DNA from: Anaerolineales bacterium
GTDB lineage: Bacteria > Chloroflexota > Anaerolineae > Anaerolineales > E44-bin32
Length of the DNA stretch: 52,100 bases
Direction: 5' to 3'
Assembly (NCBI GenBank): GCA_035455265.1
Contig: DATIFK010000216.1
Coordinates: 1-52,100, forward strand
A model generated the notes under the pieces. That model saw only the letters and a program-made list of their open reading frames with translations. It was not told the origin of the DNA and searched no databases. Shown piece by piece: positions 7,684 to 47,993 of the stretch (its first letter is position 1; each line of letters opens with the position of its first letter). A program made the position numbers and the translations under genes.

Positions 7684-7787
7684 CCAGCATCCAGTAGCCA
7701 GGTGCCGGTCAAAGCTCCGACTGGGAACTGGCTACTGGAGGCTGGCTACTGGCAACCGGGTCGGGCTGGGGGCTGGTGGCTGGAAGC
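7684..7787. repeat. H7 heptamer array a (CCAG/CTGG type)
   Basis: CCAGCATCCAGTAGCCAGGTGCCGG ... CTGGGAA CTGGCTA CTGGAGG CTGGCTA CTGGCAA, then GCTGGGG GCTGGTG GCTGGAA. Ends at the TAG of the 7787..8704 gene. Confidence 0.8.
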
Positions 7788-8704
7788 TATCTTCGCAGCT
7801 GCGTGCCGCAATTCCGGCAGAACCGATCGCTGGCCCCGGCGCGCGCGCCGCAGTTGTGACAGTACACGGTGGCGGCGCTGTCATCTCCGTCGGCAGGATC
7901 GTCTGCCGTCGGTGGGTGGCGCCGCCGCTCGCGCCTGGACGGGCGCATCGTCCGAATGTAGTAGACCGCTCCGCCGGCCATGAGCGCCAGGCCCAACGCC
8001 AACAGCGCCCACGGCAGGTACGTGACCAGGTCCGGGGTGCGGCCGCCGGCCGGTTGCGGCGTCCCGATGGGGGTCTGGGCCTGGACGAAGTCCGCGCTCA
8101 ACTGGTCGGTGGTCCGCTGGTAGGTGACGCTGAGGCTCGGCTGGGCCGCCGCGTCGATGCTGCCGAGACTGGTTCGCTGATAGGTCAACCCGAATTCTCC
8201 CGCCGACTGACTCTGCGACGGCGGGTCCATCCGCAGACCGCTGGCGCCGACGGGTTGCTGCACCTCGTACTGGAACTCCGCCGCGCCCAGTCCGCCCGGC
8301 CAGGTGAACTGGAAGCTGCGCGTGTCCCCGGTCCGCGCCAATGGCAGGTAGAACTCGATCTGGACATCGAGGCTATCGCTGTGGACCACGACGAAAGGCC
8401 TACCGCCGATTTGCTGCCGAGTGTAGTCGGCGTCGACGAGGGTGCCGGCGTCGTTGCGCGTGGCCACGGCGTTCATGTCGGCGACGGAGTCCGGCACGGG
8501 GAGGTCCACGTCGATCGGCAGCGGGGTCGCCTCTGCCAGAGTCAGGCGGTAGATGACGAGCACTTCCGGTCGGTCGTATTCGGGCCAGAAGCTGACGGTC
8601 AACTGCGAAACGGATGGCTGCGTCTGCGCCCGCGCGCCGGCGGCGGGCAGGATGAGGCCCGTCATGGCCAGCAGGAGTGCGGGGAGGGCGAAGCGAAATC
8701 GCAT
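7787..8704 (-). CDS. Membrane protein: secreted N-terminal domain, one TM, cytoplasmic zinc-ribbon tail
   Basis: Signal peptide MRFRFALPALLLAMTGLILPAAGARA. TM segment LPWALLALGLALMAGGAVYYI. C-terminal CHNCG...CRNCG. Starts 4 nt after the cytochrome c stop. Confidence 0.7.
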   Translation of the reverse strand: MRFRFALPALLLAMTGLILPAAGARAQTQPSVSQLTVSFWPEYDRPEVLVIYRLTLAEATPLPIDVDLPVPDSVADMNAVATRNDAGTLVDADYTRQQIGGRPFVVVHSDSLDVQIEFYLPLARTGDTRSFQFTWPGGLGAAEFQYEVQQPVGASGLRMDPPSQSQSAGEFGLTYQRTSLGSIDAAAQPSLSVTYQRTTDQLSADFVQAQTPIGTPQPAGGRTPDLVTYLPWALLALGLALMAGGAVYYIRTMRPSRRERRRHPPTADDPADGDDSAATVYCHNCGARAGASDRFCRNCGTQLRR

Positions 8705-8708
8705 GCCG

Positions 8709-9485
8709 CTAGGCTCGACGATAGTAGCGGATCAGCACGACGATGACGGCCGCGGCGATAACAGCCAGGAGCACGACACTCCAGGCGCGGCTCAACGGTC
8801 CCTCGGCCTGGGGGGCCGCCGTCGGCGATGATGTGGGCTCCAGAGAAAGGACGTAGGCGACCACGTTCTGGATGGTCACGTCGTCCAGCGGGCCGCCGTT
8901 GACCTGGCCCCAGGCGGGCATGCGCGTGCCGGCGATGCCCTTTGTGACGACATCATGAATGTAGACCGCCGGCTGCGTGCCGGGCCAGGACTTCGCCAGT
9001 GGTACGCCGAAGCGGCCCTGCCCTTGCTCGCCGTGGCACATGACGCAGTTCTGGTGGTACACGACGGCACCGAGCGAGGGATCACCGGTGATCTCCGGCA
9101 GGGGCTCGATTTCGGGCGGGACGTACGTCGGCAGAGGTGTGATCGGTTGCGTCCCGCCGAAGGCCGCCAGAACGTAGGCCGTCAGATCGGCGATGTCCTG
9201 GTCGCTCAGCGGGCCGCCCTGGGACTGCGCCCAGGCCGGCATCACCGTTCCGTCGATCCCGTGGGAGATCGTGTCGAAGACGGCGGCGCCGGGATCGATA
9301 CCGGGAAAGTCCTCGAGGCTGGCGCCGACGCGGCCCTGCCCATCCACGCCATGGCAGACGGCGCAGTTGGCGGCGAACAACTCGCCGCCGCGCGTCGGAT
9401 CGCCCCCTTGCGCCGAGGCAGCGCCCACGGCCACCAGCAGCCCCAGGGCGGCGACGGCCACCGCCCATCCCCATCGACCAGGCAT
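8709..9485 (-). CDS. Dihaem cytochrome c with C-terminal membrane anchor
   Basis: ATG 9485 lies 7 nt after GAGGAGG. CAVCHG and CVMCHG motifs. C-terminal hydrophobic segment AWSVVLLAVIAAAVIVVLI. Confidence 0.8.
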   Translation of the reverse strand: MPGRWGWAVAVAALGLLVAVGAASAQGGDPTRGGELFAANCAVCHGVDGQGRVGASLEDFPGIDPGAAVFDTISHGIDGTVMPAWAQSQGGPLSDQDIADLTAYVLAAFGGTQPITPLPTYVPPEIEPLPEITGDPSLGAVVYHQNCVMCHGEQGQGRFGVPLAKSWPGTQPAVYIHDVVTKGIAGTRMPAWGQVNGGPLDDVTIQNVVAYVLSLEPTSSPTAAPQAEGPLSRAWSVVLLAVIAAAVIVVLIRYYRRA

Positions 9486-9566
9486 GCGCAACCTCCTCAC
9501 GGCCGCTCCGATTCTACCGGAACCTTTCCGGGAAACACGTGGGGCGAAGCGCACCTCGCGGATGGT

Positions 9567-9618
9567 GTAGGGGCACGCCACCCTTGCACCGCCCGCAAGG
9601 GCAGGTGTGGCGTGCCCT
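9567..9618. repeat. R2 structured palindromic element, copy A
   Basis: GTAGGGGCACGCCACCCTTGCACCGCCCGCAAGGGCAGGTGTGGCGTGCCCT: 11-bp and 6-bp helices, 7-nt loop, 6-nt one-sided bulge. Second copy at 47613-47664. Confidence 0.8.
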
Positions 9619-9648
9619 TCGACGCACTGCGAAGAGGCCCTCGGGCCG

Positions 9649-10482
9649 CTACTTCAACGTCAACATGTACGCGATCAGATCGGCGGCGTCCTGCGGGGTA
9701 ACGCGATCGGCGAAATTGCCCGGCATGACGCCGCTGGTGAAGCCCGACACCACGTACACGTTCGGATCGACGATGGACTCGAGCAGGTACTGCTCGGCCG
9801 TCTTGGCCGCGCCGCCGTAAGACGGATCGGCGATGCGGGCGCCGGCCCGAGCGCCGATCCCAGGTGTCCCAGCTGCCGGCATCCAGGCCGGGCCGACGGT
9901 CGAAAGGATATGGCAGGCGGCGCAACCGAAGACGCCTTCCGCCAGCGACTTCCCGTTGTCGGCGTTGCCGGCCGGAAGCGCCTGGGTGATGTCCGTGCCG
10001 ACGGTGGACCCCGGCGGCAGCGCCGGCGTCGCGGCAGCCTCCGCCAGAGCGCGGTCCTGCCAATTCATGATGAACGCCACCAGGGCATCGATCTGGTCGT
10101 CACGCAGCGGTCCTCCGAAGCGGCTGCTCCACGTCGGCATCCGGTTGGGGTAGTTCGTGCCGGCGCTGGGGACGGGCCGCCCCGAGGAGATCGTTGAGCG
10201 CACGTAGTCTTCCACCGTCCCGGGAAAGCTGACGGCCTGCAGGCGCGACCCGTTGAACAGATCGGCGGCGTTGAGCGCCGGCGCCAGCGGCGTCCCTTTG
10301 CCTTGCGGCCCATGACAGGTGCGGCATAGGGTCTCGAACTCGAGGGCGCCGGTCTCGATAGCCTGAGCCTGATAGGCGCGATCGGCGCCGGCCATGCGAT
10401 TCGATTCGTTGAGGGCGATCCACCCAAGCACAACGGTCAACACCGCCAGGGAGAGGCCGCCGAGGGCGACTTGCCACTTCAT
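9649..10482 (-). CDS. Dihaem cytochrome c, N-terminal membrane anchor
   Basis: CRTCHG and CAACH motifs. N-terminal TM segment. ATG lies 3 nt after the cytochrome b stop and is preceded by GGGAGG. Confidence 0.85.
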   Translation of the reverse strand: MKWQVALGGLSLAVLTVVLGWIALNESNRMAGADRAYQAQAIETGALEFETLCRTCHGPQGKGTPLAPALNAADLFNGSRLQAVSFPGTVEDYVRSTISSGRPVPSAGTNYPNRMPTWSSRFGGPLRDDQIDALVAFIMNWQDRALAEAAATPALPPGSTVGTDITQALPAGNADNGKSLAEGVFGCAACHILSTVGPAWMPAAGTPGIGARAGARIADPSYGGAAKTAEQYLLESIVDPNVYVVSGFTSGVMPGNFADRVTPQDAADLIAYMLTLK

Positions 10483-10485
10483 CGC

Positions 10486-12228: not shown

Positions 12229-12243
12229 GTTGTGCCTCCCGCC

Positions 12244-12882: not shown

Positions 12883-12975
12883 GCGCTGCATCCTCCAGAG
12901 AAACGAGCCTTGAATGAGCCTTTGGCGGAGTACAAAGCCTCGCGGGAACGCCCCCGTCCCCGGCGAGGCGGGCGA

Positions 12976-13004
12976 TTCGTAACATATTTCCCAAGCAATG
13001 TCAA
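12976..13004 (-). promoter_or_regulatory. Candidate promoter of the Rieske/cyt b operon
   Basis: Minus strand TTGACA (13004-12999), 17-nt spacer, TACGAA (12981-12976). The -10 is weak. Confidence 0.35.
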
Positions 13005-13045
13005 ACGCAGCGCGGCGATCTGCGCGAAGTGAGTGGTCAACGTGC

Positions 13046-13150
13046 GGTTCCCAGTCACCAGTTGCCAGTCCCCAGTCCCATTCTGCTCGAAGGGTTGCAT
13101 CGACCACTCACGCTATTGACTGGCAACTGGAGACTCGTTCCTGGAAACCC
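13046..13150. repeat. H7 heptamer array b (CCAG/CTGG type, inverted arms)
   Basis: TTCCCAG TCACCAG TTGCCAG TCCCCAG TCCCA ... TTGA CTGGCAA CTGGAGA CTCGTTC CTGGAAA CCC, in a divergent intergenic region. Confidence 0.85.
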
Positions 13151-13169
13151 TTCGCCGACAACCGAACGG

Positions 13170-13175
13170 TATAAT
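13170..13175 (+). promoter_or_regulatory. -10 box of an apparently leaderless rnd transcript
   Basis: TATAAT, then 6 nt (GCCCTC), then ATG 13182. No Shine-Dalgarno in between. Confidence 0.45.
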
Positions 13176-21544: not shown

Positions 21545-22320
21545 GCCGCGGCCTGGTGCCATTGCTGATCGGGCTGGCCCTCGGGGTGATCGGGGGGCTG
21601 ACCTACGCGTGGGCCATCGATCCGGTCGAACTCGTCGGCGGCGCACCGGCGGCGATGAGCGCGGACGCCCAGGCCGACTATCTGACGCTGATCGCTTCGG
21701 CCTACGCGGCAACGGACGATCTGCCGCGCGCTCAGGCACGCCTGGCCCTGTTCTCCGACCCGAACGCCGCCGAGACGCTCGGGGCACTCGCTCAGGCGCG
21801 CCTGGCGTCGGGCCGGCCGGTCTCCGAAGCGCAGGCGCTGGCGCGCCTTGCCGGCGACCTCGGCGTTCGGCCGTCGCCTCCGCCCTCTCCGGCCACCACC
21901 GCCTCCCCCGCCCGACCGACGGTGTCCCCCACCATCACGCGCACACCGACCTTGCGCCCGTCGCCGACCGTCAGCCGCACACCGGGGGCGCCCTTCCAGA
22001 TCGAACGCCAGGAGCTCGAGTGCGACCCGGATCAGACGGCCCCTCGAATTCGCGTGCGCGTCCTCGATGCCGCCGGACAGGGCGTTCCCGGCGTCGAGGT
22101 TCTCGTCTTGTGGGACACCGGAGAGGATCGTTTCTACACCGGCCTCAAACCGGAGCTCGGCTCGGGTTACGGGGACTTCGCCATGACGGAGGGGGTCGTG
22201 TACACCGTGCGCCTGGCTGAGTCCGGCGCGCTGGTGACGGGATTGCAGGTCCAGACCTGCACCAGCGATTCGGGGGAAAGCTATCCGGGGTCCTGGGCGC
22301 TGGACTTCGTGCAGCCCTAG
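21541..22320 (+). CDS. Hypothetical membrane-anchored protein with Pro/Thr linker and C-terminal domain
   Basis: ATGA overlap with the previous gene. TM segment LLIGLALGVIGGLTYAW. N-terminal region is paralogous. PSPPPSPATT linker. Confidence 0.6.
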   Translation: MSRGLVPLLIGLALGVIGGLTYAWAIDPVELVGGAPAAMSADAQADYLTLIASAYAATDDLPRAQARLALFSDPNAAETLGALAQARLASGRPVSEAQALARLAGDLGVRPSPPPSPATTASPARPTVSPTITRTPTLRPSPTVSRTPGAPFQIERQELECDPDQTAPRIRVRVLDAAGQGVPGVEVLVLWDTGEDRFYTGLKPELGSGYGDFAMTEGVVYTVRLAESGALVTGLQVQTCTSDSGESYPGSWALDFVQP

Positions 22321-22326: not shown

Positions 22327-22406
22327 CCTCCAGCTTCCAGTTCCCAGTGCCGGCGACTGACGGCTGGAAGCTGGTGGCTGGCAGCGGGCGGCTGTCGACT
22401 GGCTAC
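22327..22406. repeat. H7 heptamer array c (CCAG/CTGG type)
   Basis: CTCCAGC TTCCAG TTCCCAG TGCCGG ... GCTGGAA GCTGGTG GCTGGCA ... GACTGGCTA. Lies between convergent stops and reaches the bactofilin TAG. Confidence 0.8.
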
Positions 22407-22801
22407 TCGGCCGCTTCTTCTCGCTCTGCGCCGAGGTCGACCTTCTCCTCCATCGTGATCTGACCGCGCAGGAAGGCACCTTCTTCGGTGGAGAAGGCCG
22501 CCGTCACGACGTCCCCCCAGACGCGCCCCGTTTGCGTGATTTCGAGCCGCTGAGCCGTGATGTCGCCGCGGACGGATCCAGCGACAACGACCGTGGCGGC
22601 GCGCAGGCGCTTGCACGTCACTCGGCCTTGTTCCCCGACGACGACCAGACCTCGCAAGTCGATCTCGCCGTCGAAGGCTCCCTCGATCCGCACCCCGCCA
22701 GCGCCGCTCAGCGCGCCGGTCAGGGCCAGCCCGGGGCCCAACACCGAATCGACCCGGTCGCCGCCTTCAGCCGCCTGAGCCTCTTCTTTGCGTCGAAACA
22801 T
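22403..22801 (-). CDS. Bactofilin family cytoskeletal protein
   Basis: 132 aa. Repetitive beta-helix pattern (GVRIEGAFDGEIDLRGLVVVGEQGRV...VAGSVRGDITA). TGATG overlap with the upstream gene. Confidence 0.8.
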   Translation of the reverse strand: MFRRKEEAQAAEGGDRVDSVLGPGLALTGALSGAGGVRIEGAFDGEIDLRGLVVVGEQGRVTCKRLRAATVVVAGSVRGDITAQRLEITQTGRVWGDVVTAAFSTEEGAFLRGQITMEEKVDLGAEREEAAE

Positions 22802-25063: not shown

Positions 25064-25069
25064 ATTGTA
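25064..25069 (-). promoter_or_regulatory. Candidate -10 (TACAAT) for the GYD-to-bactofilin operon
   Basis: Minus-strand TACAAT 47 nt upstream of ATG 25016. The H7 arm ends 12 nt upstream of it. Confidence 0.35.
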
Positions 25070-25082: not shown

Positions 25083-25165
25083 CGGTTTCCAGTTCCCAGT
25101 CGCCGGTTCCCAGTCCGTGCACGACACGCTTTGACTGGCGACTGGAAACCGGGAACTGGTAACCG
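25083..25165. repeat. H7 heptamer array d (CCAG/CTGG type, inverted arms)
   Basis: TTTCCAG TTCCCAG TCGCCGG TTCCCAG TCC ... TTGA CTGGCGA CTGGAAA CCGGGAA CTGGTAA CC. Confidence 0.85.
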
Positions 25166-25961: not shown

Positions 25962-25964
25962 GGG

Positions 25965-26071
25965 TTACCAGTTGCCAGTTCCCAGTTGCCAGTCAAGAAC
26001 CTCCTAGAGTCCCGACCCGTGGACCTACAGACGCTTGATACTGGAAGCTGGAAACTGGGAACTGGCAACTC
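25965..26071. repeat. H7 heptamer array e (best example, inverted arms)
   Basis: TTACCAG TTGCCAG TTCCCAG TTGCCAG TCAAG, ~40-nt loop, CTTGATA CTGGAAG CTGGAAA CTGGGAA CTGGCAA CTCG. Fills the gap between the coaBC stop and the DUF72 start. Confidence 0.9.
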
Positions 26072-32062: not shown

Positions 32063-32070
32063 AGAGAGCC

Positions 32071-32136
32071 CTCAGTCGTCAGTCAAGACCCAACAAGACG
32101 GAAACGGAGACCTGATGACTGACGACTGACGACTCA
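32071..32136. repeat. H7 heptamer array g (TCAG/CTGA type, inverted arms)
   Basis: CTCAGTC GTCAGTC AAG ... CTGATGA CTGACGA CTGACGA CTCA. Lies between convergent stops. The last unit contains the coaX stop codon. Confidence 0.85.
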
Positions 32137-35703: not shown

Positions 35704-35838
35704 GGCTATCTCCTCCTGATGAGTGAGATGCCTCGAGCCGGGAGCCTTCCCGGAAACAGACCCGCCCATGCCGGGCGGGATTCCGTACCGAGGTGGCCGT
35801 CTCGGTCGTGGCCCGATCCAAGCGGCCGCGACATTATA
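35704..35838 (-). promoter_or_regulatory. panB promoter (-10 TATAAT) and ~120-nt structured leader with terminator-like hairpin
   Basis: Minus-strand TATAAT 35838-35833. Leader hairpins include CCCGCCC-GGCAT-GGGCGGG followed by TCTGTTTCC (35779-35751). Confidence 0.4.
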
Positions 35839-35856
35839 CAGCAGGTCCAAACAGCC

Positions 35857-35965
35857 GGTTCCCAGTAGCCAGTTCCCAGTTCCCAGTCCTCGGCCAGCGG
35901 TGTTCAGTAGGCTGGCGGTCGCGTTGTTCTTGATTGATGACTGACGACTGACAACTGATAACTCA
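35857..35965. repeat. H7 heptamer array f (hybrid: CCAG-type left arm, CTGA-type right arm)
   Basis: TTCCCAG TAGCCAG TTCCCAG TTCCCAG TCC ... TTGATTGATGA CTGACGA CTGACAA CTGATAA CTCA. The last unit holds the stop of the 35963..37039 gene. Confidence 0.85.
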
Positions 35966-37039
35966 CGGTCCCCAGGCCATACCCCGGATGCGCTCCCCCT
36001 CGACCAACACCTGCAATGGGCTTTCGTCGGCCCTCGCCAGGACGACTTGCGCGTTGCCCTCCCCGCAGCCTTGCAGGATGAGCGCCAGCGATCCGTCGTC
36101 CGACCAGAGGACGTCACACACATGGAACTCCTCCGGGCGGACCGGGGTGATGTTCGAGCCGTCCGAGTTGCTGCGCACCATCGTCAACGGGATGCCGACG
36201 TCGGGATCGAAGTGGATGTAGCCGTCGAAGAAGAGCAGCTCGCCGGACGGCAGCTGCAGCGGCCAACCGACGTAGTGACGCTTGTTGTCCTCCCCGGCCC
36301 CTGCCAGGATGACAGACTCCTGCCCCGTCTCGGCGTCGTAGCGCCAAAGCCCTGGCTCGACGGTCGTGTAGTCCGGGTTCGCCACCAGCACCGAACCGCC
36401 GTCCAGAGTCCAGCTGACCTGACAGCACACAGGCCCGTTGGATCGCAACCGCGTGTACGGCTGCTCCGCCTCCAGGTCCATCACGGCCAGCGTGCTTCCC
36501 TCGAAGTAGCCCATCACGATCAGGAGCTTGCTCGCATCGGGAGACCAGGGCCCGGGCGAGTAGAGCTCCTTGGCGAACACCGACGGCTCGCCCAACAGGT
36601 TGCCCAGGTTGAACAGCGCATGGTCGTCCAGGCCCGTGGCCACATCGTAGAGATGCAGGCCGTCGAGGGCATAGGCCAGCGTTTGCCCATCGGGCGAGAA
36701 GACGGGGCTGCTGACCGCTGTGGTGAAGCCGGGGTCGTCCACGCGCCTGTCCACGTCGCTCTCGTCCGCGATCCGTAGACGATTCCCGCCGTCGGCATCC
36801 GTCAGGAAGAGCTGGTTGTTGGTGACAATCGCCAGGCTGCCGTCCGCGGGAGAAACGGCAAATTCCTGAATCCCGGACTCTTCATGGGTGACCTGGGCGC
36901 TTTCGCCATCGGCGTCCAGGCGCCGCACTTGGGCCGCCTCATCCTTGCCCTCCAGGTAGTAGACGGAATGAGGCAGCGGTGACGGAGTGCAGGCCGCCAA
37001 CAGGCCGGACAACGCGAGGACGGCTGTGATGTTGCGCAT
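35963..37039 (-). CDS. Lipoprotein with TolB/PD40-like beta-propeller repeats
   Basis: Lipobox LLAAC. SPDG and WSPD repeats. 358 aa. Confidence 0.65.
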   Translation of the reverse strand: MRNITAVLALSGLLAACTPSPLPHSVYYLEGKDEAAQVRRLDADGESAQVTHEESGIQEFAVSPADGSLAIVTNNQLFLTDADGGNRLRIADESDVDRRVDDPGFTTAVSSPVFSPDGQTLAYALDGLHLYDVATGLDDHALFNLGNLLGEPSVFAKELYSPGPWSPDASKLLIVMGYFEGSTLAVMDLEAEQPYTRLRSNGPVCCQVSWTLDGGSVLVANPDYTTVEPGLWRYDAETGQESVILAGAGEDNKRHYVGWPLQLPSGELLFFDGYIHFDPDVGIPLTMVRSNSDGSNITPVRPEEFHVCDVLWSDDGSLALILQGCGEGNAQVVLARADESPLQVLVEGERIRGMAWGP

Positions 37040-37060
37040 GATGCCGGCTGCCTCCAGCGA

Positions 37061-37205
37061 GTCGTCAGTTTTCAGTCTTCAGTTTTCAGTTTTCAGTTTT
37101 CGGTTTTCAGTTTCAGGCTTCAGTCTTCGCTTGTCGATGACAGAGGTATGTCAAAAGACGGCTGATAACTGATGACTGATCACTGATGACTGATCTCTGA
37201 TATCT
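37061..37205. repeat. H7 heptamer array h (largest: about 10 GTTTTCA-type units vs 6 CTGATNN units)
   Basis: GTCGTCA GTTTTCA GTCTTCA GTTTTCA GTTTTCA GTTTTCG GTTTTCA GTTTCAG GCTTCA GTCTTCG ... CTGATAA CTGATGA CTGATCA CTGATGA CTGATCT CTGATAT. Confidence 0.9.
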
Positions 37206-39834: not shown

Positions 39835-39835
39835 G

Positions 39836-41748: not shown

Positions 41749-41754
41749 ATTATA
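41749..41754 (-). promoter_or_regulatory. -10 box (TATAAT) 9 nt upstream of ATG 41739
   Basis: Minus strand TATAATGCCCTC, the same 12-mer as at the rnd promoter. Confidence 0.4.
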
Positions 41755-41813
41755 CCCAGTGGTCAATGTTCGGTGGTCAGTGGTTAGTGGTCAGTGGCAG
41801 GTGGTCAGAACTG
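41755..41813. repeat. H7 heptamer array i (single arm, GGTCAGT type)
   Basis: CCCAGTG GTCAATG TTCGGTG GTCAGTG GTTAGTG GTCAGTG GCAGGTG GTCAGAA CTGG. Confidence 0.85.
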
Positions 41814-41921
41814 GACGAGGGCCATATACTCCCGGCACGACACCCTTTCGGACCGCGCACCGCCCGAGGCGGCGAGATGGCCGGGATGGTGTGGTCGCTG
41901 ACGCCTGGAGAGCGCCCTCTC

Positions 41922-42493: not shown

Positions 42494-42515
42494 CTTGACA
42501 AGCGAGGACGCGCTG

Positions 42516-43574: not shown

Positions 43575-44389
43575 TCGCCCTCCACCGCCAATCGATAGAC
43601 CTCCCGCCGGATCCAGCCGGAGGCCTCGGCCACGGCGCGCGCCGCGCTCGTCGGGCTCTCTCCGAGTCGCCGGCGCCGGCGCAGCTCTTTCCGCACGCCC
43701 GCCTCGTCCCACGCCGCCGCGGCCGCCCCGCCGACCACCAAGGTGAACTCGCCGCGCGGAGGCTTGTCGGCGAAGTAGGCCTGCAGCGAGGAGAGGGATC
43801 CGCGTCGAATCTCCTCGTGGAGTTTCGTCAGCTCGCGGCAGGCCGCCGCCGGCCTCTCGCCGCCCAGAGCGCGCACCAGGTCGGCCAGCGCCGACCGCAA
43901 CCGATGGGGCGCTTCGAACAACACCAGCGTACGCGGTTCGGAGGCGATCCCCTTCAGCAGCTTGCGCCTCTCGGCCGCATGGCGCGGCAGGTACCCGAGA
44001 TAAAGGAAGGCGTCGCTCGGCAGGCCCGAGGCGACCAGCGCCGCCACCGGCGCCGATGCCCCGGGGATGGGCCGGACGGTGTGGCCGGCGTCGAGGGCGG
44101 CGCGCACCAGCTCGTATCCAGGATCGGAGAGCCCGGGCGTTCCGGCGTCCGAGACCAGGGCCACATCCTCCGTCTCGAGGGCGCGCAGGATGCGCCCCAG
44201 CCGGGCGCGTTTGTTGTGCTCGTGGTAGCTGATCTGAGGGGTCTCGATGCCGTAGTGCTGCAGGAGCCGACCGGTGTGCCGCGTGTCCTCGCTGGCAATG
44301 TGGCCGACCTCCTTCAAGAGGCGCAGGGCCCGCAGCGTGATGTCCTCCAGGTTGCCGATCGGAGTCGCCACCAGGTAGAGCGTGCCCAC
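43571..44389 (-). CDS. rsmI: 16S rRNA (cytidine1402-2'-O)-methyltransferase
   Basis: GTG start. GTLYLVATPIGNLEDITLRAL motif. Confidence 0.9.
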   Translation of the reverse strand: MGTLYLVATPIGNLEDITLRALRLLKEVGHIASEDTRHTGRLLQHYGIETPQISYHEHNKRARLGRILRALETEDVALVSDAGTPGLSDPGYELVRAALDAGHTVRPIPGASAPVAALVASGLPSDAFLYLGYLPRHAAERRKLLKGIASEPRTLVLFEAPHRLRSALADLVRALGGERPAAACRELTKLHEEIRRGSLSSLQAYFADKPPRGEFTLVVGGAAAAAWDEAGVRKELRRRRRLGESPTSAARAVAEASGWIRREVYRLAVEGE

Positions 44390-44395
44390 GGCGGT

Positions 44396-44401
44396 ATTGT
44401 A
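44396..44401 (-). promoter_or_regulatory. -10 box (TACAAT) 6 nt upstream of the rsmI GTG
   Basis: Minus strand TACAAT-ACCGCC-GTG. No SD. Confidence 0.45.
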
Positions 44402-44407
44402 GCAGGC

Positions 44408-44446
44408 GTCGAAATGAAGACCTCCGGCGCGCCGGCGCCGGAGGTC
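44408..44446 (-). terminator. Terminator after csp
   Basis: GACCTCCGGCGC-GCCG-GCGCCGGAGGTC 12-bp stem. On the minus strand it is followed by TTCATTTCG. Confidence 0.5.
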
Positions 44447-44471
44447 GAAGGTGCGTGGTGGGAGAGTCGGA

Positions 44472-44702
44472 TCAGGCTTTGTCGCTGGCGACGGCCCTCA
44501 CGGCGACGGCCTGCGGTCCCTTGGGGGTGTCCTCCACGGTGTAGGTCACCTGCTGCCCCTCTTCGAGGTTCCGGTAACCTTCGCCCTCGATCCCGCTGAA
44601 ATGGACGAAGATTTCCTTCCCCCCGTCATCGGGAGCGATGAAGCCGTAGCCTTTGACGCGGCTAAACCACTTCACCGTCCCTTGCATGCGGTTCGACTCC
44701 AT
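44472..44702 (-). CDS. Cold-shock protein (CspA family)
   Basis: KWFSRVKGYGFI (RNP1) and FVHFS (RNP2). ATG 44702 lies 5 nt after GGGAGG. Confidence 0.9.
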   Translation of the reverse strand: MESNRMQGTVKWFSRVKGYGFIAPDDGGKEIFVHFSGIEGEGYRNLEEGQQVTYTVEDTPKGPQAVAVRAVASDKA

Positions 44703-44824
44703 ATTCGCCTCCCAACTGGCGCGCACTTGAGGCGACCCCCATGAGGGCCCATGGGCCCTCACCCGGCCGGAAATCCCTCCTGCCTAGCGGGGATCTGCGA
44801 CCCAGTGCTCCCGAAGTGGCGCCG

Positions 44825-44853
44825 ACTCTAGCACAGGAGACAAGGGGCGGCAA
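44825..44853 (-). promoter_or_regulatory. Candidate csp promoter
   Basis: Minus strand TTGCCG (44853-44848), 17 nt, TAGAGT (44830-44825). About 120-nt 5' UTR with a TGAGGGCCC-ATG-GGCCCTCA hairpin. Confidence 0.4.
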
Positions 44854-44854
44854 T

Positions 44855-44985
44855 ACCAGTCGTCAGTCATTAGTCGTCAGTCATCCGTCAAGAGCAAGGA
44901 CCTGCCGAGCCCCACAGGCGCCGTGTGCTTTCTTGTGCTGCCTTTCACTGACAACTGAGAACTGATGACGGACGACTCCAGACTC
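44855..44985. repeat. H7 heptamer array j (TCAG/CTGA type, inverted arms)
   Basis: CCAGTCG TCAGTCA TTAGTCG TCAGTCA TCCGTCA AG, ~50-nt loop, CACTGAC AACTGAG AACTGAT GACGGAC GACTCCA GACTC. Confidence 0.85.
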
Positions 44986-44990
44986 TCCGT

Positions 44991-45020
44991 TTGACTCGCC
45001 GCTTGCGCCTGTGTTAGACT
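44991..45020 (+). promoter_or_regulatory. Candidate promoter of the SAM riboswitch transcript
   Basis: TTGACT, 18 nt, TAGACT. The predicted start lies just before riboswitch helix P1. Confidence 0.45.
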
Positions 45021-45027
45021 GCCGATC

Positions 45028-45195
45028 CACTCATCAGGAGAGGCGGAGGGACCGGCCCTGCGATGCCTCGGCAACCCCCGTCGGCGCTGCCGGCGGAAGG
45101 TGCCAACTCCGGCAGAACGCGCGGTTCGAGGCGCGGTCTGGAAGATGAGGGACGAGATGCCGCGAACCGCCTCTTCGTCCCGAAGGGGCGTTTTC
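45028..45195 (+). promoter_or_regulatory. SAM-I (S-box) riboswitch with terminator expression platform
   Basis: CTCATCAGGAGAGGCGGAGGGACCGGCCC..GATGCCTCGGCAACC...GGTGCCAACTCCGGCAG...GAAGATGAGG matches the S-box core. Terminator GCCTCTTC-GTCCC-GAAGGGGC + GTTTT at 45169-45195. Confidence 0.85.
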
Positions 45196-45239
45196 GTCCC
45201 GTGGCCGCGAATGGAGCGGATGGCCCGTGCAGCCTGCCG

Positions 45240-47114
45240 ATGACTGAGCGTTCGGAAACCTGGCGGACCTGGCTCGCCTCGGGAGAACCGCTGCTCGCCG
45301 ACGGTGCCATGGGCACGTTGCTGCACGCGCGCGGTGTGCCCATCGACGCTTGCTTCGACGAGCTCAACCTGACGCGTCCAGACTTGGTGGCCGAGATCCA
45401 CCGGGAATACATCGAGGCCGGAGCGCGCCTGATCGAGACGAACACCTTCGGCGCCAACCCGTTCAAGTTGGCGGCTCACGGCCTGGAAACAAAGCTGGAA
45501 GAGGTCAACGCCGCGGCCGTGCGCCTGGCTCGCCGCGCCGCGGAGACGCCCAAGGATCCCGTCCTGGTGGCGGGAAGCGTCGGGCCGCTTGGCGTGCGGC
45601 TGGCACCCTTCGGGCGCATCCAGCCGGAGCAGGCGGCGGCCGCCTTCCGGCGGCAGATCGCCGCCCTGGTCGACTCCGGCGTCGACCTGCTGCTGTTCGA
45701 GACCCACACCGACGTCCGCGAGTTGTCGCTGGCGATCGAGACCGCCCGCACGATCAGCGACCTGCCTATCGTGGCCTCGATGACCTACACCCGCGACGAC
45801 AGGACCCTGTTGGGCGACAGTCCGTCTCAAGTGTGCGGGGCTTTGCTGCGCGCCGGCGCCGACGTGATCGGCGCCAACTGCTCCGGCGGACCGGCGCAGC
45901 TCCTTCGGATCCTGTACGCCATGCGACAGTCCGCGCCGACGGCGCGATTCAGCATCATGCCGAATGCCGGCTGGCCCGAGCGCGTCGCCGGGCGCATCCT
46001 GTACACGGCCACTCCCGAGTACTTCGCCGAACACGCCCGCGCCTTCCGCCAGGCCGGCGCATCGATGATTGGGGGCTGCTGCGGGACGACGCCGTCCCAC
46101 ATCGCCGCCATGCGCCAGGCGCTGGAACTGCCCTCGAATGGCGCCGAGGCGACCTTCGTGGAGATTCTCCCCGTGCCGGCCCCCGCGCCGCGCTCGCCCG
46201 ATCAGCCCACACACTTGGCCCGCCTTCTGTCCACCGGGCGCTTCGTCACCTCCGTCGAACTCGATCCTCCCCGCGGCTTCTCGACGCACAAGCTCCTGGC
46301 CGCCGCCCACCTGCTGGCCGAGGCGGGCGTCGATGTGATCAACGTGGCCGACAGCCCGATGGCCCGCATGCGCATGAGCCCCTGGGCCGTGTGCCACCTG
46401 ATCCAGAGCGAGACGGCGCTCGAGACCGTCCTGCACTTCCCGACGCGCGGCCGAAACCTGCTTCGCATCCAGGGCGACCTGCTGGCCGCCCACGCGCTGG
46501 GCGTCCGCAACGTCTTCGTCGTCATGGGCGATCCGACGGCCGTCGGGGACTATCCCGAGGCGATGGACGACTACGACGTGCCGCCCTCCGGGTTGATCCA
46601 GCTGATCAAGCATCACTTCAACGCCGGAGTGGATCAGGCCGGCGCCGACATCGGTGGTGCGACCTCGTTCGTCGTCGGGTGCGCCGTCAACCTGTGTGCA
46701 CCGGACATCGAGCGCGAGGCGCGGGTGCTGCACCGCAAAGTCAGGGCCGGCGCCGATTTCATCCTCAGCCAGCCGGTCTACGACGCCGAGGTGGTCCGCT
46801 CCTTCCGGCGACTCTACGCCGGCGCGTTCGGCCCCTTGACCACACCGCTGCTTGTCGGCCTGTTGCCCCTTCACAACGCCCGCCACGCCTCATTCCTCCA
46901 CAACGAAGTGCCCGGGATCAAGATCCCGCGGCCGGTGCGCGAGCGGATCGCCTACGCCGGCTCGGACGCGCCGGCCGAAGGCGTGCGCCTGGCGGGCGAA
47001 CTGCTCGAGGAGCTGGCCGATCAGGTGCAGGGGATCTACCTCATGCCGGCCTTCCAGCGATTCGATCTGGCCGCCGAAGTTGTCGATCGGGCCCGGCAAC
47101 TGGCAACGGCCTGA
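45240..47114 (+). CDS. Bifunctional homocysteine S-methyltransferase / 5,10-methylenetetrahydrofolate reductase (YitJ-like)
   Basis: Start at ATG 45240. N-terminal Hcy-binding domain (GANCSGGP, GGCCGTTPSHI). C-terminal MTHFR domain. Confidence 0.85.
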   Translation: MTERSETWRTWLASGEPLLADGAMGTLLHARGVPIDACFDELNLTRPDLVAEIHREYIEAGARLIETNTFGANPFKLAAHGLETKLEEVNAAAVRLARRAAETPKDPVLVAGSVGPLGVRLAPFGRIQPEQAAAAFRRQIAALVDSGVDLLLFETHTDVRELSLAIETARTISDLPIVASMTYTRDDRTLLGDSPSQVCGALLRAGADVIGANCSGGPAQLLRILYAMRQSAPTARFSIMPNAGWPERVAGRILYTATPEYFAEHARAFRQAGASMIGGCCGTTPSHIAAMRQALELPSNGAEATFVEILPVPAPAPRSPDQPTHLARLLSTGRFVTSVELDPPRGFSTHKLLAAAHLLAEAGVDVINVADSPMARMRMSPWAVCHLIQSETALETVLHFPTRGRNLLRIQGDLLAAHALGVRNVFVVMGDPTAVGDYPEAMDDYDVPPSGLIQLIKHHFNAGVDQAGADIGGATSFVVGCAVNLCAPDIEREARVLHRKVRAGADFILSQPVYDAEVVRSFRRLYAGAFGPLTTPLLVGLLPLHNARHASFLHNEVPGIKIPRPVRERIAYAGSDAPAEGVRLAGELLEELADQVQGIYLMPAFQRFDLAAEVVDRARQLATA

Positions 47115-47143
47115 GGTCAGTTGTCAGTCGTCAGTCATCAGTG
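47115..47143. repeat. H7 heptamer array k (single arm)
   Basis: GGTCAGT TGTCAGT CGTCAGT CATCAGT G begins immediately after the TGA at 47112-47114. Confidence 0.8.
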
Positions 47144-47222
47144 TGGTGACGGGGCGATGACCAACCCACAATGATCGGGGGCCAGGTGCGACGACAGTCT
47201 CGTGAATCGAGGAGGTGACGCA

Positions 47223-47582
47223 ATGGCAGAGATCAGCGAACTGGCGCTGCGAGAATGCATCCCCTGCAAGGGCGGTGTGCCACCCTTGAAAGGGGCGGAG
47301 CTGCAGAAGTTGCACTCCATGCTCGGCGGCGACTGGCGGGTGGTGGACGAGCATCATCTGGAGAAGGAATTCCGGTTCAAGAACTTCCGCCAGGCCCTCG
47401 ATTTCACCAATCGCATCGGCGAATTGGCCGAGCAGGTCAACCATCATCCGGACCTGTGTCTGGGCTGGGGCCGGACGCAGGTCACCTTGTGGACGCACAA
47501 GATTGGCGGGCTGAGCGAATCCGATTTCGTCTTCGCCGCCAAGGTGGATGCGCTGCAAGCCAACGGTGAGCGCCGGGATTAG
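47223..47582 (+). CDS. phhB: 4a-hydroxytetrahydrobiopterin (pterin-4a-carbinolamine) dehydratase
   Basis: ATG 47223 after GGAGG. ...FRFKNFRQALDFTNRIGELAEQVNHHPD... Confidence 0.85.
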   Translation: MAEISELALRECIPCKGGVPPLKGAELQKLHSMLGGDWRVVDEHHLEKEFRFKNFRQALDFTNRIGELAEQVNHHPDLCLGWGRTQVTLWTHKIGGLSESDFVFAAKVDALQANGERRD

Positions 47583-47612
47583 CGCGACGCCCAGGTTGAG
47601 AATCCCTCCACA

Positions 47613-47664
47613 GTAGGGGCGAAGCACCCTGGCACCACCCGCCAGGGCAGGTGTGCTTCGCCCT
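47613..47664. repeat. R2 structured palindromic element, copy B
   Basis: GTAGGGGCGAAGCACCCTGGCACCACCCGCCAGGGCAGGTGTGCTTCGCCCT. Same length and architecture as 9567-9618, with compensatory stem changes. Confidence 0.8.
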
Positions 47665-47714
47665 CACGAAATCCTCGGAGGCAGCCGTCCGCGAACTGTG
47701 GCGCTTATGGCGTC

Positions 47715-47742
47715 TTGACATCGCCATTCCTTGTGCTACTAT
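47715..47742 (+). promoter_or_regulatory. Promoter of the metG leader
   Basis: TTGACA, 16 nt, TACTAT. Confidence 0.55.
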
Positions 47743-47768
47743 CGGTCCTCTGGAAAAGGCGGTAGGTC

Positions 47769-47828
47769 ATGATCGTTCGGCTGACCTTGGGAATGGAGAT
47801 GCGCCAGCTGCCGACGCCGGCAGGGTGA
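47769..47828 (+). other. Candidate 19-codon leader ORF (MIVRLTLGMEMRQLPTPAG)
   Basis: ATG 47769 to TGA 47826-47828, inside the metG leader. Three Met codons, two of them in M-E-M. Weak AAGG/TAGG upstream. Confidence 0.3.
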
Positions 47829-47868
47829 GGCCCGCCGGCATTGGGCCGCCGCGCCCCGGCAGCGTCTT

Positions 47869-47898
47869 CCGCCAGCCTCGTGCTGGCGGTTTCGTTTC
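47869..47898 (+). terminator. Intrinsic terminator inside the metG leader
   Basis: CCGCCAGC-CTCGT-GCTGGCGG followed by TTTCGTTTC. Confidence 0.6.
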
Positions 47899-47993
47899 AA
47901 GTCATCAGTTCTCAGTCGTCAGGGATCAGTCAATTCCATTGCTGGCGACGGTTATCTGATGACCGACAACGGACGACCGATGACTGACGACTG
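47899..47993. repeat. H7 heptamer array l (TCAG/CTGA type, inverted arms)
   Basis: GTCATCA GTTCTCA GTCGTCA GGGATCA GTCAAT ... CTGATGA CCGACAA CGGACGA CCGATGA CTGACGA CTGG. Ends at the metG GGAGG. Confidence 0.85.

What the first reader, a model, noticed from the sequence alone, without database searches (positions are those of the whole stretch)
7684..47993. Twelve intergenic arrays of CAGT-core heptamers, mostly as inverted arms (H7 family)
Seen directly. At 12 sites the sequence switches to a strict 7-nt period built on a CAGT (or TCAG) core. The sites are 7684-7787, 13046-13150, 22327-22406, 25083-25165, 25965-26071, 32071-32136, 35857-35965, 37061-37205, 41755-41813, 44855-44985, 47115-47143 and 47899-47993. 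Unit types are TTNCCAG, GTCAGTC, GGTCAGT and GTTTTCA, with 3-10 units per arm. At 10 of the 12 sites a second arm 15-60 nt downstream carries the reverse-complement units (CTGGNAA, CTGACGA, CTGATNN). Each such site could fold as a long hairpin or cruciform with 4-6 bp paired blocks and a mismatch roughly every 7 nt. Example: TTACCAG TTGCCAG TTCCCAG TTGCCAG at 25965-25992 versus CTGGAAG CTGGAAA CTGGGAA CTGGCAA at 26041-26068. Inner arm ends often read CAGTCAAG ... CTTGA. No array lies inside a supported CDS. Six arms stop within 0-2 nt of, or contain, a stop codon (7787, 22403, 26073, 32134, 35963, 47114). Several others end 12-19 nt upstream of a -10 box. Together they occupy about 1.1 kb of the window. 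Heptamer tandem repeats with a similar core (STRR, e.g. CCCCAGT) are known in heterocystous cyanobacteria, with no established function. I cannot match the inverted-arm architecture in this GC-rich genome to a described element.
Basis: partly seen in the sequence, partly recalled or inferred. Interest (0 to 1): 0.8.

Follow-up and report, generated by a model that had tools for sequence, protein, structure and literature searches.

The report
Facing CAGT heptamer arrays between genes
About two in five of the listed gaps of at least 40 nt between genes in this Chloroflexota chromosome hold runs of a 7-base unit built on CAGT, usually as two runs facing each other in one fixed polarity; the same design is common in phage contigs, resembles known heptamer repeats of cyanobacteria, and has no demonstrated function.

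Summary
All 12 sites carry period-7 arrays with a (Y)CAGT core. None lies inside a gene, and chance expectation is about zero. Ten sites have two arms, always CAGT-arm, then spacer, then ACTG-arm.

I tested this polarity on independent data: 120 viral contigs found with a single-arm pattern. It holds there for 68 arm pairs in 34 contigs. The 3 exceptions belong to one degenerate family.

The window is from an uncultured Anaerolineae-like Chloroflexota genome. Close relatives carry arrays in some of the same gaps, but with other unit types, decayed cores or only one arm.

Hairpin potential is strong, yet it follows from the shared core. Three tests found no extra pairing at variable bases, no pairing in spacer flanks, and no advantage for the sense strand.

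The elements fill whatever space is free, from the stop codon to the next -35/-10 box or ribosome-binding site. They sit inside phage late operons, so they cannot be efficient terminators. They change by 7-nt slippage and by wholesale replacement, sometimes by REPIN-like hairpins.

Best reading (about 0.4): a heptad-built, REP/REPIN-like foldback repeat of the STRR/TAACTGA sequence kind, read by an unknown orientation-sensitive factor. Rivals are a protein-binding DNA lattice like the omega heptads, or a selected RNA hairpin.

The parts
7684..7787 (.). Site 1. C arm 7685-7709 (4 units), spacer 10 nt, A arm 7720-7758 that continues as decayed GCTGG heptads to 7787. It lies between the stop of the Zn-ribbon gene (7787-7789, minus strand) and the start of the histidine kinase gene (7576, minus strand).
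   Evidence: genes
13045..13150 (.). Site 2. C arm 13045-13076 (5 units, TNCCAGT class), spacer 42 nt, A arm 13119-13143. It lies between divergent genes (Rieske protein on the minus strand, RNase D-like on the plus strand). A TATAAT box at 13170 lies 19 nt outward of the A arm.
22327..22408 (.). Site 3. C arm 22331-22348, 7-nt spacer, A arms 22356-22380 and 22391-22408 (partly GCTGG). It fills the gap between convergent stops at 22320 (plus strand) and 22403 (bactofilin, minus strand).
25083..25165 (.). Site 4. C arm 25083-25114, spacer 19 nt, A arm 25134-25165. It runs from the DUF72 stop (25173) to 13 nt before the conserved TACAAT box (25064-25069, minus strand) of the GYD gene.
25965..26071 (.). 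Site 5. C arm 25969-25993, spacer 46 nt, A arm 26040-26071. It fills 96% of the gap between the coaBC stop (26073) and the longest-ORF DUF72 start (25961), with no promoter-like site between.
32068..32136 (.). Site 6. Short C arm 32072-32084 (2 units, GTCGTCAGT class), spacer, A arm 32104-32135. It lies between convergent stops of the peptidase gene (32062, plus strand) and coaX (32134, minus strand). The coaX TGA is formed by T plus the outermost GAGT unit.
35856..35965 (.). Site 7. C arm 35856-35887 (TTCCCAGT class), spacer 45 nt, A arm 35933-35964 (GTCGTCAGT class). The arms are of different classes and do not give a significant fold. A TATAAT box at 35833 (minus strand) lies 18 nt outward, upstream of panB.
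37059..37205 (.). Site 8. C arm 37059-37111 (8 or more TTTTCAGT units), spacer about 49 nt, A arm 37161-37199 (ACTGATN units, includes TAACTGA). It runs from the MFS gene stop (37211) to 21 nt before the ATG at 37039, past a GGAGG ribosome-binding site.
41755..41813 (.). Site 9. Direct-only array of GGTCAGT-type units (C type on the plus strand). It spans the space between two divergent -10 boxes: TATAAT at 41749 (minus strand) and TATACT at 41825 (plus strand).
44855..44985 (.). Site 10. C arm 44857-44888, spacer 58 nt, A arm 44947-44985. It lies between two divergent promoter-like sites. One is TTGCCG-17-TAGAGT for csp (minus strand, -35 box 2 nt from the C arm, read by eye). The other is TTGACT-18-TAGACT at 44991-45020 for the SAM riboswitch.
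47115..47143 (+). Site 11. Direct-only array of 4 GTCAGT-type units. It starts at the base after the TGA of the yitJ-like gene (47112-47114).
47899..47993 (.). Site 12. C arm 47899-47930, spacer 10 nt, A arm 47941-47993. It starts 9 nt after a canonical terminator (47869-47889) and ends in the GGAGG ribosome-binding site of metG (ATG at 48005).

Best explanation
The 12 sites are copies of a heptad-built foldback repeat. Two arrays of the oriented unit NN(Y)CAGT face each other across a short unique spacer, with (NNNCAGT)n on the left and (ACTGNNN)n on the right. This arrangement reads the same on both strands.

By sequence the family belongs with the intergenic heptanucleotide repeats of cyanobacteria and Beggiatoaceae (STRR, TAACTGA). 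By architecture, niche and dynamics it behaves like REP/REPIN elements.

Shown:
- The arrays change by 7-nt slippage and by wholesale replacement.
- They occupy only sequence free of other constraints, so they run from the stop codon to the next -35/-10 box or ribosome-binding site.
- They occur in every kind of gap: tandem, convergent and divergent.
- They lie inside phage late operons and in front of window genes that have no promoter of their own. RNA polymerase must therefore read through them, and they are not efficient terminators.

Inferred:
- The conserved core and the fixed polarity mean that a factor reads the unit in one orientation. The 5' half of each strand carries the CAGT-type array, much as each strand of a REPIN carries one readable REP.
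- That factor mainly maintains or spreads the repeat. It does not serve a gene-specific regulatory role.
- The long mismatch-punctuated hairpins formed in transcripts are a side effect. They may, as with REPs, protect upstream mRNA segments.
For: Reality and specificity.

Polarity:
- Window: all 10 two-armed sites read CAGT arm then ACTG arm. The automated neighbour count scored 7 of them as CA pairs and no AC pair.
- Syntenic relatives: 3 of 3.
- Independent viral contigs: 68 CA pairs in 34 contigs against 3 AC pairs in one contig.

All gap types and the fill-the-gap behaviour.

Turnover at orthologous gaps in relatives with 80-93% protein identity.

Lineage burst: 2.4-6 arms per 10 kb here, against 0.11 in 80 other loci.

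Slippage by one unit between contigs about 95% identical.

Wholesale replacement by other palindromic cassettes, including GTAG...CTAC double hairpins, at the same stop-to-ribosome-binding-site gaps, with mosaic identity jumps there.

Dispersed copies that share spacers in both orientations in phage contigs.

No selection for pairing beyond the shared core.

Phage structural operons carry the elements.

The REPIN properties used for comparison are from PMC3116915.
Against: - No transposase or RAYT was seen in the window ORFs scanned or in 94 phage ORFs.
- The window spacers are all unique, and I saw no target-site duplication. There is therefore no direct sign of recent copying in this genome.
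- Unit types differ between copies far more than in REPINs.
- The DUF72-GYD gap holds an array in all four related genomes. Phages under packaging limits keep 100-250 nt elements at nearly every junction. Both facts could mean the elements bring a benefit.
- The two arms of a window element share a unit class in 9 of 10 cases by my classification of the arm sequences. Cognate arms match better than non-cognate arms (permutation p about 0.006). Some coupling of the arms therefore exists.
Confidence: 0.4

Rival explanations
1. Protein-binding DNA lattice. A small dimeric DNA-binding protein binds one duplex heptad each and coats the arrays as a helical filament, as the ribbon-helix-helix omega/ParB protein of pSM19035 does. 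Two filaments face each other. The coated gap insulates neighbouring transcription units or assists the adjacent promoters.
For: - The period is strictly 7 bp and contiguous, with a core of about 5 conserved bases plus 2 free bases, in runs of 3-14 units.
- The polarity is fixed.
- Arms of different classes (site 7) and direct-only arrays are natural under this model.
- Arrays end 0-19 nt from -10 boxes and 2-5 nt from -35 boxes. Site 10 lies between two divergent promoters that do not transcribe it.
- There is no pairing signal.
- Precedent (PMC9499535): 7-10 contiguous non-palindromic WATCACW heptads, direct or converging, overlapping promoters, one dimer per heptad, forming a left-handed spiral.
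- L083 has (GTGATTY)3, the reverse complement of AATCAC, next to an ACTGACC array.
Against: - No candidate protein was found.
- Spacers vary from 1 to more than 50 bp, with only a weak mod-7 preference (p 0.02). One continuous filament is therefore unlikely.
- A sister phage replaces the heptad elements with unrelated GC-rich hairpins at the same gaps. This is hard to reconcile with a needed heptad-binding site.
- The model gives no reason for arrays to begin at stop codons.
Confidence: 0.2
2. Selected RNA hairpin. The element works in the transcript as an intercistronic or 3'-UTR stem-loop. It sets segmental mRNA stability or processing (RNase III or exonuclease block), or it couples translation: a ribosome ending at the stop codon melts the 5' arm and frees the 3' arm next to the ribosome-binding site.
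For: - Folds reach -24 to -59 kcal/mol with z -2.3 to -6.5.
- 5' arms begin 0-3 nt after stop codons, and 3' arms end at ribosome-binding sites (sites 5, 8, 12).
- Nearly every junction of phage late operons is occupied.
- Sister genomes carry other hairpin-forming cassettes at the same places.
- The two arms of a window element share a unit class in 9 of 10 cases by my classification, and cognate arms match better than non-cognate arms.
Against: - Three tests found no pairing-specific signal. The antisense strand folds better in 15 of 25 tandem cases.
- Site 7 does not fold.
- The divergent-promoter sites 2, 9 and 10 are not in the flanking transcripts.
- Direct-only arrays exist.
- A hairpin alone does not explain the fixed polarity.
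Confidence: 0.15
3. Single-strand reader for translation. The ACUG-type array upstream of start codons binds an OB-fold protein with a 6-7 nt footprint (cold-shock protein or S1) and acts as a translation enhancer or standby site. This was proposed for TAACTGA repeats in Beggiatoaceae.
For: - In every element the arm next to a gene start reads ACTG in the sense strand. In Beggiatoaceae 132 of 170 sets are in this orientation just upstream of start codons (PMC4679880).
- Lone arms next to stops read CAGT 44 times against 15.
- A csp gene lies in the window.
Against: - The rule follows automatically from the element's symmetry.
- Canonical GGAGG ribosome-binding sites follow the arms (sites 8 and 12).
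- Many arms lie upstream of promoters or between convergent stops, where no start codon exists.
- The cold-shock protein sequence preference is recalled from memory only.
Confidence: 0.07
4. Pure mutational by-product. Polymerase slippage favours 7-nt units, and arrays simply accumulate in unconstrained DNA with no reader at all.
For: - Unit-number changes occur in 7-nt steps.
- Heptamers are the commonest long simple repeats in many bacteria, with polymerase slippage proposed as the cause (Mrazek 2007, as cited in PMC4679880 and PMC4692102).
- Cores decay in L081.
Against: - It cannot explain why every array in the window shares the CAGT core.
- It cannot explain why CAGT is otherwise under-represented (observed/expected 0.64).
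- It cannot explain the 68:3 polarity.
Confidence: 0.08

Closest known systems
STRR (short tandemly repeated repetitive) heptanucleotides of heterocystous cyanobacteria, e.g. CCCCAGT
   Same: Tandem 7-nt units, intergenic location, CAGT core, no established function. CCCCAGT is confirmed as a Nostoc repeat in PMC4692102. The other STRR unit sequences are from memory.
   Different: STRR is described as direct tandem arrays in cyanobacteria. Here the host is a 67% GC Chloroflexota genome. The units are TTNCCAGT, GTCGTCAGT, GGTCAGT and TTTTCAGT. The typical form is two facing arms with fixed polarity.
TAACTGA direct repeats of Beggiatoaceae, cyanobacteria and Bacteroidetes (MacGregor 2015, PMC4679880)
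   Same: Same core: TAACTGA in tandem equals ACTGATA units, which occur at 37161-37199. The repeats are intergenic and lie next to start codons in the same sense orientation. Indels come in 7-nt steps and copy number is strain-specific. Function is unknown.
   Different: In Beggiatoaceae these are short direct sets (2-6 copies), with only one inverted case among 170. Chloroflexota and phages were not reported. The polarity rule was not described.
REP / BIME / REPIN elements (Bertels and Rainey 2011, PMC3116915)
   Same: Extragenic location. Inverted doublets with a less conserved spacer that can fold as hairpins in ssDNA or mRNA. Fixed arrangement of the doublet. Singlets look like remnants. 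Abundance is lineage-specific. REPIN-like GTAG...CTAC hairpins occupy the same gaps in a sister phage.
   Different: REPs are 20-40 nt conserved sequences with compensatory changes and a linked RAYT gene. Here only a 4-5 nt core and the 7-nt period are conserved. No compensatory signal was found and no RAYT was seen.
Omega (ParB of pSM19035) heptad operators / parS (PMC9499535)
   Same: Contiguous non-palindromic 7-bp units, 7-10 per site, in direct and converging orientation, overlapping or abutting promoters. WATCACW is one base away from the AATCAGT units seen in phage contigs.
   Different: The omega sites are plasmid-borne, six per plasmid, next to the gene of the ribbon-helix-helix protein that binds them, and the heptads are contiguous without spacers. 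Here there are very many chromosomal and phage sites, with spacers of 1-58 nt and no identified protein.
GGGNATC-type heptamer repeats of Xanthomonas and Nostoc (Rehm 2015, PMC4692102)
   Same: [quoted passage not shown] GGG-core inverted heptad elements sit beside CAGT-core ones in phage contig L131.
   Different: They have a G-rich core and were studied for G-quadruplex formation. The CAGT-core units here have no G-runs.

Membership tests
STRR / heptanucleotide intergenic tandem repeats | Head-to-tail 7-nt units, three or more copies, outside genes | tested here: met
   TRF period 7 at all sites. The arms lie only in intergenic gaps.
STRR / heptanucleotide intergenic tandem repeats | Published unit sequences (CCCCAGT and others) in heterocystous cyanobacteria | tested here: not met
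   The units are TTNCCAGT, GTCGTCAGT, GGTCAGT and TTTTCAGT. The nearest relatives are Chloroflexota.
TAACTGA repeats (MacGregor 2015) | Direct repeats of TAACTGA, forward orientation, ending a few nt upstream of a start codon | tested here: inconclusive
   Only site 8 contains TAACTGA-like units. ACTG arms abut the starts at sites 5, 8 and 12. However, most arrays are inverted pairs, and many lie next to promoters or stop codons.
REP / REPIN | Extragenic inverted doublet able to form a hairpin | tested here: met
   10 of 12 sites. Five of the six sites folded give z -2.3 to -6.5 on both strands; site 7 does not fold significantly.
REP / REPIN | Highly conserved 16-40 nt sequence shared by copies; compensatory changes keep the hairpin | tested here: not met
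   Only the core and the period are shared. The spacers are unique. There is no excess complementarity within elements.
REP / REPIN | Associated RAYT (Y1 transposase) gene in the genome | not testable with these tools
   Only 52 kb of the genome is available. None was found among the ORFs scanned or among 94 phage ORFs.
Omega-type heptad operator / parS | Four or more contiguous 7-bp non-palindromic repeats, direct or converging | tested here: met
   Most arms have 4-8 contiguous units (a few have only 2-3). The order is converging only.
Omega-type heptad operator / parS | WATCACW consensus and a cognate ribbon-helix-helix gene next to the sites | tested here: not met
   The core is YCAGT. No ribbon-helix-helix domain was found in the scanned ORFs.
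Intrinsic (Rho-independent) terminator | GC-rich stem-loop followed directly by a U-tract | tested here: not met
   The scan places canonical terminators elsewhere: 44446-44419, 45168-45190 and 47869-47889. The only terminator-like hits overlapping an array are two weak 5-bp stems at the right edge of site 3 and one weak 6-bp stem inside the site 10 spacer. The 3' arms are purine-rich and are followed by ribosome-binding sites or promoters.
MITE | Terminal inverted repeats, target-site duplication, near-identical dispersed copies | tested here: inconclusive
   Inverted arms are present. No target-site duplication was seen at the L131/L194 junctions. The window copies do not share spacers, but copies in phage contigs do, in both orientations.
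Rfam RNA families | Match to any curated covariance model | tested here: not met
   No hit overlaps an array at the gathering threshold or at E<=1.

The most novel reading that the evidence does not exclude
The YCAGT heptad arrays are the binding lattice of a still unidentified, orientation-sensitive heptad-reading protein. It could be omega-like on duplex DNA, or an OB-fold or HUH-type reader on single strands. Together they would form a genome-wide punctuation system at gene boundaries. Chloroflexota, cyanobacteria, Beggiatoaceae, some Bacteroidetes and their phages would share it, and the fixed converging polarity would be its grammar.
Probability: 0.22. Interest if true: 0.85.

Novelty: new variant of a known kind. 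Interest (0 to 1): 0.6.

Why it matters
Heptanucleotide intergenic repeats have been known since 1990 and are among the commonest long simple repeats in bacteria. Even so, no function or reader has been found.

This window, with the contigs it led to, adds three concrete handles:
- a fourth phylum, Chloroflexota, at high density;
- presence at almost every gene junction of some phage late operons;
- a near-absolute polarity rule, CAGT arm then ACTG arm, that a plain hairpin or plain slippage does not predict.

A rule of this strength makes the question testable.

If it is a binding protein, it is a new kind of gene-boundary marking shared by hosts and phages.

Tried and rejected
- Exact-protein look-ups for two window proteins found nothing. 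The source genome is not in the collections, and the best CoaBC match in genome contigs is 67% identical.
- Rfam at the gathering threshold and at E<=1 found nothing on the arrays.
- Intrinsic terminator: rejected. There is no U-tract, and canonical terminators exist elsewhere.
- Promoter -35 mimicry: TTGCCA and CTGACN resemble TTGACA, but in opposite orientations in the two unit classes. The -35 positions in the four GYD orthologues are not conserved. I treat this as coincidence.
- Rho rut site: regularly spaced YC is attractive, but cyanobacteria, which carry such repeats, lack Rho (from memory). The GGTCAGT type is also G-rich.
- Restriction-site or primase-site arrays, RSS-like heptamers and Tc1-type footprints were considered from memory. 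None fits the period or the data.
- Spacer similarity between window sites: none above shuffles.
- Spacer flank complementarity: none above control.
- tblastn of a 771-aa ORF of the array-dense phage contig L160 against annotated phages: no match, so its host is unknown.
- Elhai 2008 on small dispersed repeats in Nostoc could not be read.

Full report
**1. Observation**

The window is a 65-70% GC chromosome segment with housekeeping genes: metG, coaBC, coaX, panB, a yitJ-like gene behind a SAM riboswitch, csp and two tRNAs.

TRF reports period-7 arrays at all 12 listed sites. The exact pattern CAGTN3CAGTN3CAGT occurs 16 times, against 0.00 expected.

A phase scan allowing one core mismatch per unit finds 11 CAGT-type arms and 11 ACTG-type arms. 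All lie at the listed sites and none in coding sequence. The same scan (with a slightly looser cut-off of 2 exact cores per arm) gives 0-1 arms in shuffled windows.

I made small corrections:
- The spacers are 7-58 nt.
- The left arm of site 6 has two units.
- The right arms of sites 1 and 3 decay to GCTGG heptads.
- The two arms of site 7 belong to different unit classes and do not fold significantly.

**2. Anatomy**

The conserved part is (T/C)CAGT. The other two positions vary, often from unit to unit. TRF scores several arrays better at period 14 than at period 7.

Outer units often degrade to GAGT or CGGT. The TGA stop of coaX and of the gene at 35963 is formed by T plus a GAGT unit.

The strongest regularity is polarity. 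At all ten two-armed sites the plus strand reads CAGT arm, spacer, ACTG arm. This class maps onto itself on the other strand. The opposite class (ACTG...CAGT) never occurs.

**3. Source and relatives**

The best CoaBC relatives among GTDB species genomes are Chloroflexota (Anaerolineae-type MAGs, Ca. Aquidulcis, Thermoflexus) at no more than 67% identity. The source genome itself is not in that collection.

DUF72 homologues reach 93%, 82% and 80% identity. Their contigs, L081, L082 and L083, are syntenic with the window.

Arm density is 2.4-6 per 10 kb in this lineage. It is 0.11 per 10 kb in the other 80 loci.

At orthologous gaps the arrays persist, change or vanish:
- DUF72-GYD gap: an inverted TTNCCAGT element in the window; a decayed CCCGC/GCTGG version in L081; an inverted TNNCCAGT element in L082; only an ACTGACC arm plus a (GTGATTY)3 array in L083. 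The TACAAT promoter and the 5' UTR of the GYD gene just downstream stay conserved.
- coaBC-DUF72 gap: the element exists only in the window and L081. L081 shows five changes in the 5' arm and none compensatory. L083 has other G/C-rich sequence there, with what looks by eye like a palindrome (not folded).

**4. Independent test of the polarity**

I scanned viral contigs with a single-arm pattern, which says nothing about a partner arm. This gave 120 loci totalling 0.97 Mb.

Among neighbouring arms no more than 120 nt apart:
- CAGT-then-ACTG: 68 pairs in 34 contigs.
- ACTG-then-CAGT: 3 pairs, all copies of one AT-rich degenerate family in L154.
- Same-sense neighbours: 16 pairs.
- With stricter arm calls the count is 53 to 0.

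Some contigs (L160, L180, L134, L152) carry such an element in nearly every gap, running from the stop codon to the ribosome-binding site. A Pfam scan of 94 ORFs from 13 array-dense contigs found capsid, portal, connector, tail-tube, head-completion and terminase domains. It found no transposase and no ribbon-helix-helix domain. These are phage structural operons, so transcription must pass through the elements.

**5. Is the hairpin selected?**

Predicted folds are strong (-24 to -59 kcal/mol, z to -6.5) on both strands. But any CAGT arm pairs with any ACTG arm at 4-5 of 7 positions by construction, so I ran four tests.

- Variable positions. Identity of the three variable positions between the two arms of an element is 0.54 (0.64 at the best register). 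Between arms of different elements in the same contig it is 0.50 (0.59). Permutation p is 0.41 and 0.25.
- Spacer flanks. They pair at 3.7 of 8 positions, against 3.6 +/- 0.18 in controls.
- Strand. In 25 tandem-gene contexts the sense RNA is the more stable in 8 cases and the antisense in 15. There is no G-U signature of a functional sense transcript.
- Window arms. Cognate arms match better than non-cognate arms (p about 0.006). By my classification of the arm sequences, the two arms share a unit class (C or T before CAGT) in 9 of 10 sites. Within a class the cognate arm is usually not the best partner.

The arms are therefore coupled in kind but not base by base.

**6. Context**

By my approximate gene map, of 29 listed gaps of at least 40 nt (some of which probably hide unannotated genes), 12 hold an array. 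These are 7 tandem, 2 convergent and 2 divergent gaps, plus site 9, which lies between divergent -10 boxes in a gap whose right-hand neighbour I could not annotate.

The arrays abut whatever functional element comes next:
- Stop codons at 0-3 nt.
- -10 boxes at 0-19 nt. This holds for 5 of the window's 15 strong -10 hexamers.
- -35 boxes at 2-5 nt on both sides of site 10, which lies between the csp promoter and the SAM-riboswitch promoter.
- Ribosome-binding sites at sites 8 and 12.

Canonical GC-stem plus T-run terminators exist elsewhere: after csp, in the riboswitch, and at 47869-47889 directly before site 12. The arrays are not this organism's standard terminator.

At sites 5, 8 and 12 I see no promoter between the ACTG arm and the next start codon, so read-through is needed there too.

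No Rfam family matches the arrays. CAGT and ACTG are among the most under-represented tetranucleotides outside the arrays (observed/expected 0.64 and 0.75).

**7. Dynamics in phages**

Contigs about 95% identical (L087, L124, L157) differ at one array by a single 7-nt unit and by unit order.

L131 and L194 are 95-97% identical in their genes. At the same stop-to-ribosome-binding-site gaps they carry different cassettes:
- L131 has CAGT-core elements and GGG-core heptad elements, (CAGGGAT)n...(CCCTAAC)n.
- L194 has GC-rich double hairpins bracketed by GTAG...CTAC, which are REPIN-like.
- In one shared element all units differ in type (GAGCAGT against AATCAGT).

Sequence identity jumps from about 96% to 76-78% across these junctions. 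The junctions are therefore mosaic boundaries.

Within phage contigs, copies share spacer sequences in both orientations. In the window every spacer is unique.

**8. Interpretation**

Identity is well supported. This is a polar, heptad-built, palindromic intergenic repeat. By sequence it belongs to the STRR/TAACTGA kind (PMC4679880, PMC4692102). By architecture and niche it is REP/REPIN-like (PMC3116915).

Mechanism is inferred. These facts fit a self-maintaining or mobile repeat best:
- presence in every gap type;
- filling of free space;
- a lineage-specific burst;
- core decay;
- slippage;
- replacement by other palindromic cassettes;
- the lack of pairing-specific selection.

Under this view the RNA hairpins are a side effect.

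The conserved core and the polarity demand an orientation-sensitive reader. On each strand the 5' half is the CAGT-type array. This parallels the way each strand of a REPIN presents one REP.

I put this reading at about 0.4. The weaknesses are real: no enzyme was found, the window spacers are unique, one gap is occupied in all four relatives, and phages retain the elements.

**9. Rivals**

- A DNA lattice for a heptad-binding protein has a close precedent in the omega/ParB heptads of pSM19035. These are 7-10 contiguous WATCACW units, direct or converging, at promoters (PMC9499535). The model explains arms of different classes, direct-only arrays and the divergent-promoter sites. Against it stand the variable spacers, with only a weak mod-7 preference, and the replacement by non-heptad hairpins (0.2).
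- A selected RNA hairpin, acting in segmental stability, processing or translational coupling, fits the stop-to-ribosome-binding-site placement and the phage operons. It fails three tests (variable-position complementarity, spacer-flank pairing, sense-strand stability) and does not explain the polarity (0.15).
- A single-strand reader for translation, as proposed for TAACTGA, gets 0.07.
- Reader-free slippage gets 0.08.

**10. Novelty**

Heptamer intergenic repeats with this core are known, and their function is unknown. In five full-text searches I found no description of three things:
- the facing-arm form with fixed polarity;
- its density in Chloroflexota;
- its presence at the gene junctions of phage late operons.

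I class it as a new variant of a known kind, with interest 0.6. It would rank higher if a reader protein or enzyme were found.

Noticed in passing
window 47715-47889: A good promoter-like site (TTGACA-16-TACTAT with TG, 47715-47742) is followed about 125 nt later by a canonical terminator (47869-47889). Both lie upstream of metG (ATG at 48005). This looks like a short leader or attenuator, or a small RNA. It has no Rfam match, T-box included.
   Followed up: partly
window 45028-45190 and 45063-47114: A SAM-I riboswitch (76.6 bits) with its own terminator (45168-45190) lies in front of a fused homocysteine S-methyltransferase / MTHFR gene (yitJ-like).
   Followed up: partly
window 44416-44736 (minus strand): The csp gene region gives a sub-threshold Rfam hit to the cspA thermoregulator (38 bits, gathering threshold 78). 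From my reading of the sequence, the 5' UTR would be about 115 nt, and a strong terminator lies at 44446-44419.
   Followed up: no
window 7775-7782 and about 22370-22377: The decayed GCTGG heptads of sites 1 and 3 contain GCTGGTGG, the E. coli Chi octamer. This is probably coincidence, and the Chi sequence of Chloroflexota is unknown.
   Followed up: no
whole window outside the arrays: CAGT and ACTG are the 5th and 10th most under-represented of the 256 tetranucleotides (observed/expected 0.64 and 0.75). CTAG is the lowest (0.31).
   Followed up: partly
L083 10787-10815: A (GTGATTY)3 heptad array starts in the DUF72 stop codon and lies next to an ACTGACC array. Its reverse complement, AATCAC, is the core of the omega-repressor heptad WATCACW.
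   Followed up: partly
L131 9570-9640 and 12420-12490; L194 about 2530-2590, 3030-3090 and 5360-5420: Phage L131 also has inverted heptad elements with a GGG core, (CAGGGAT)n...(CCCTAAC)n. Its 95-97% identical relative L194 has GC-rich double hairpins bracketed by GTAG...CTAC (REPIN-like) at the same junctions. Sequence identity drops to 76-78% in the genes between some junctions, giving mosaic boundaries.
   Followed up: partly
L154 530-641, 1434-1545, 4560-4671: These are the only exceptions to the polarity rule. Three copies of one AT-rich repeat in a 64% GC contig have the order ACTG-like arm then CAGT-like arm. The 3' arm ends in T-runs, so they may be ordinary bidirectional terminators.
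   Followed up: no
L160 591-839 and L180 5215-5396: A higher-order repeat: four tandem copies of a roughly 50-nt block, each made of five CAGT heptads plus an AAAGGCAAA-type linker, followed by one ACTG arm. The spacers in these phages are themselves (TTTTTGC)n or the reverse complement.
   Followed up: no
window 25964-25993, 35853-35880, 37162-37201, 44858-44884: TRF scores these arrays better at period 14 than at period 7 (up to 100% matches). Unit variants alternate, for example CGT/CAT and x/G. This suggests two-unit slippage or a 14-nt reading unit.
   Followed up: no
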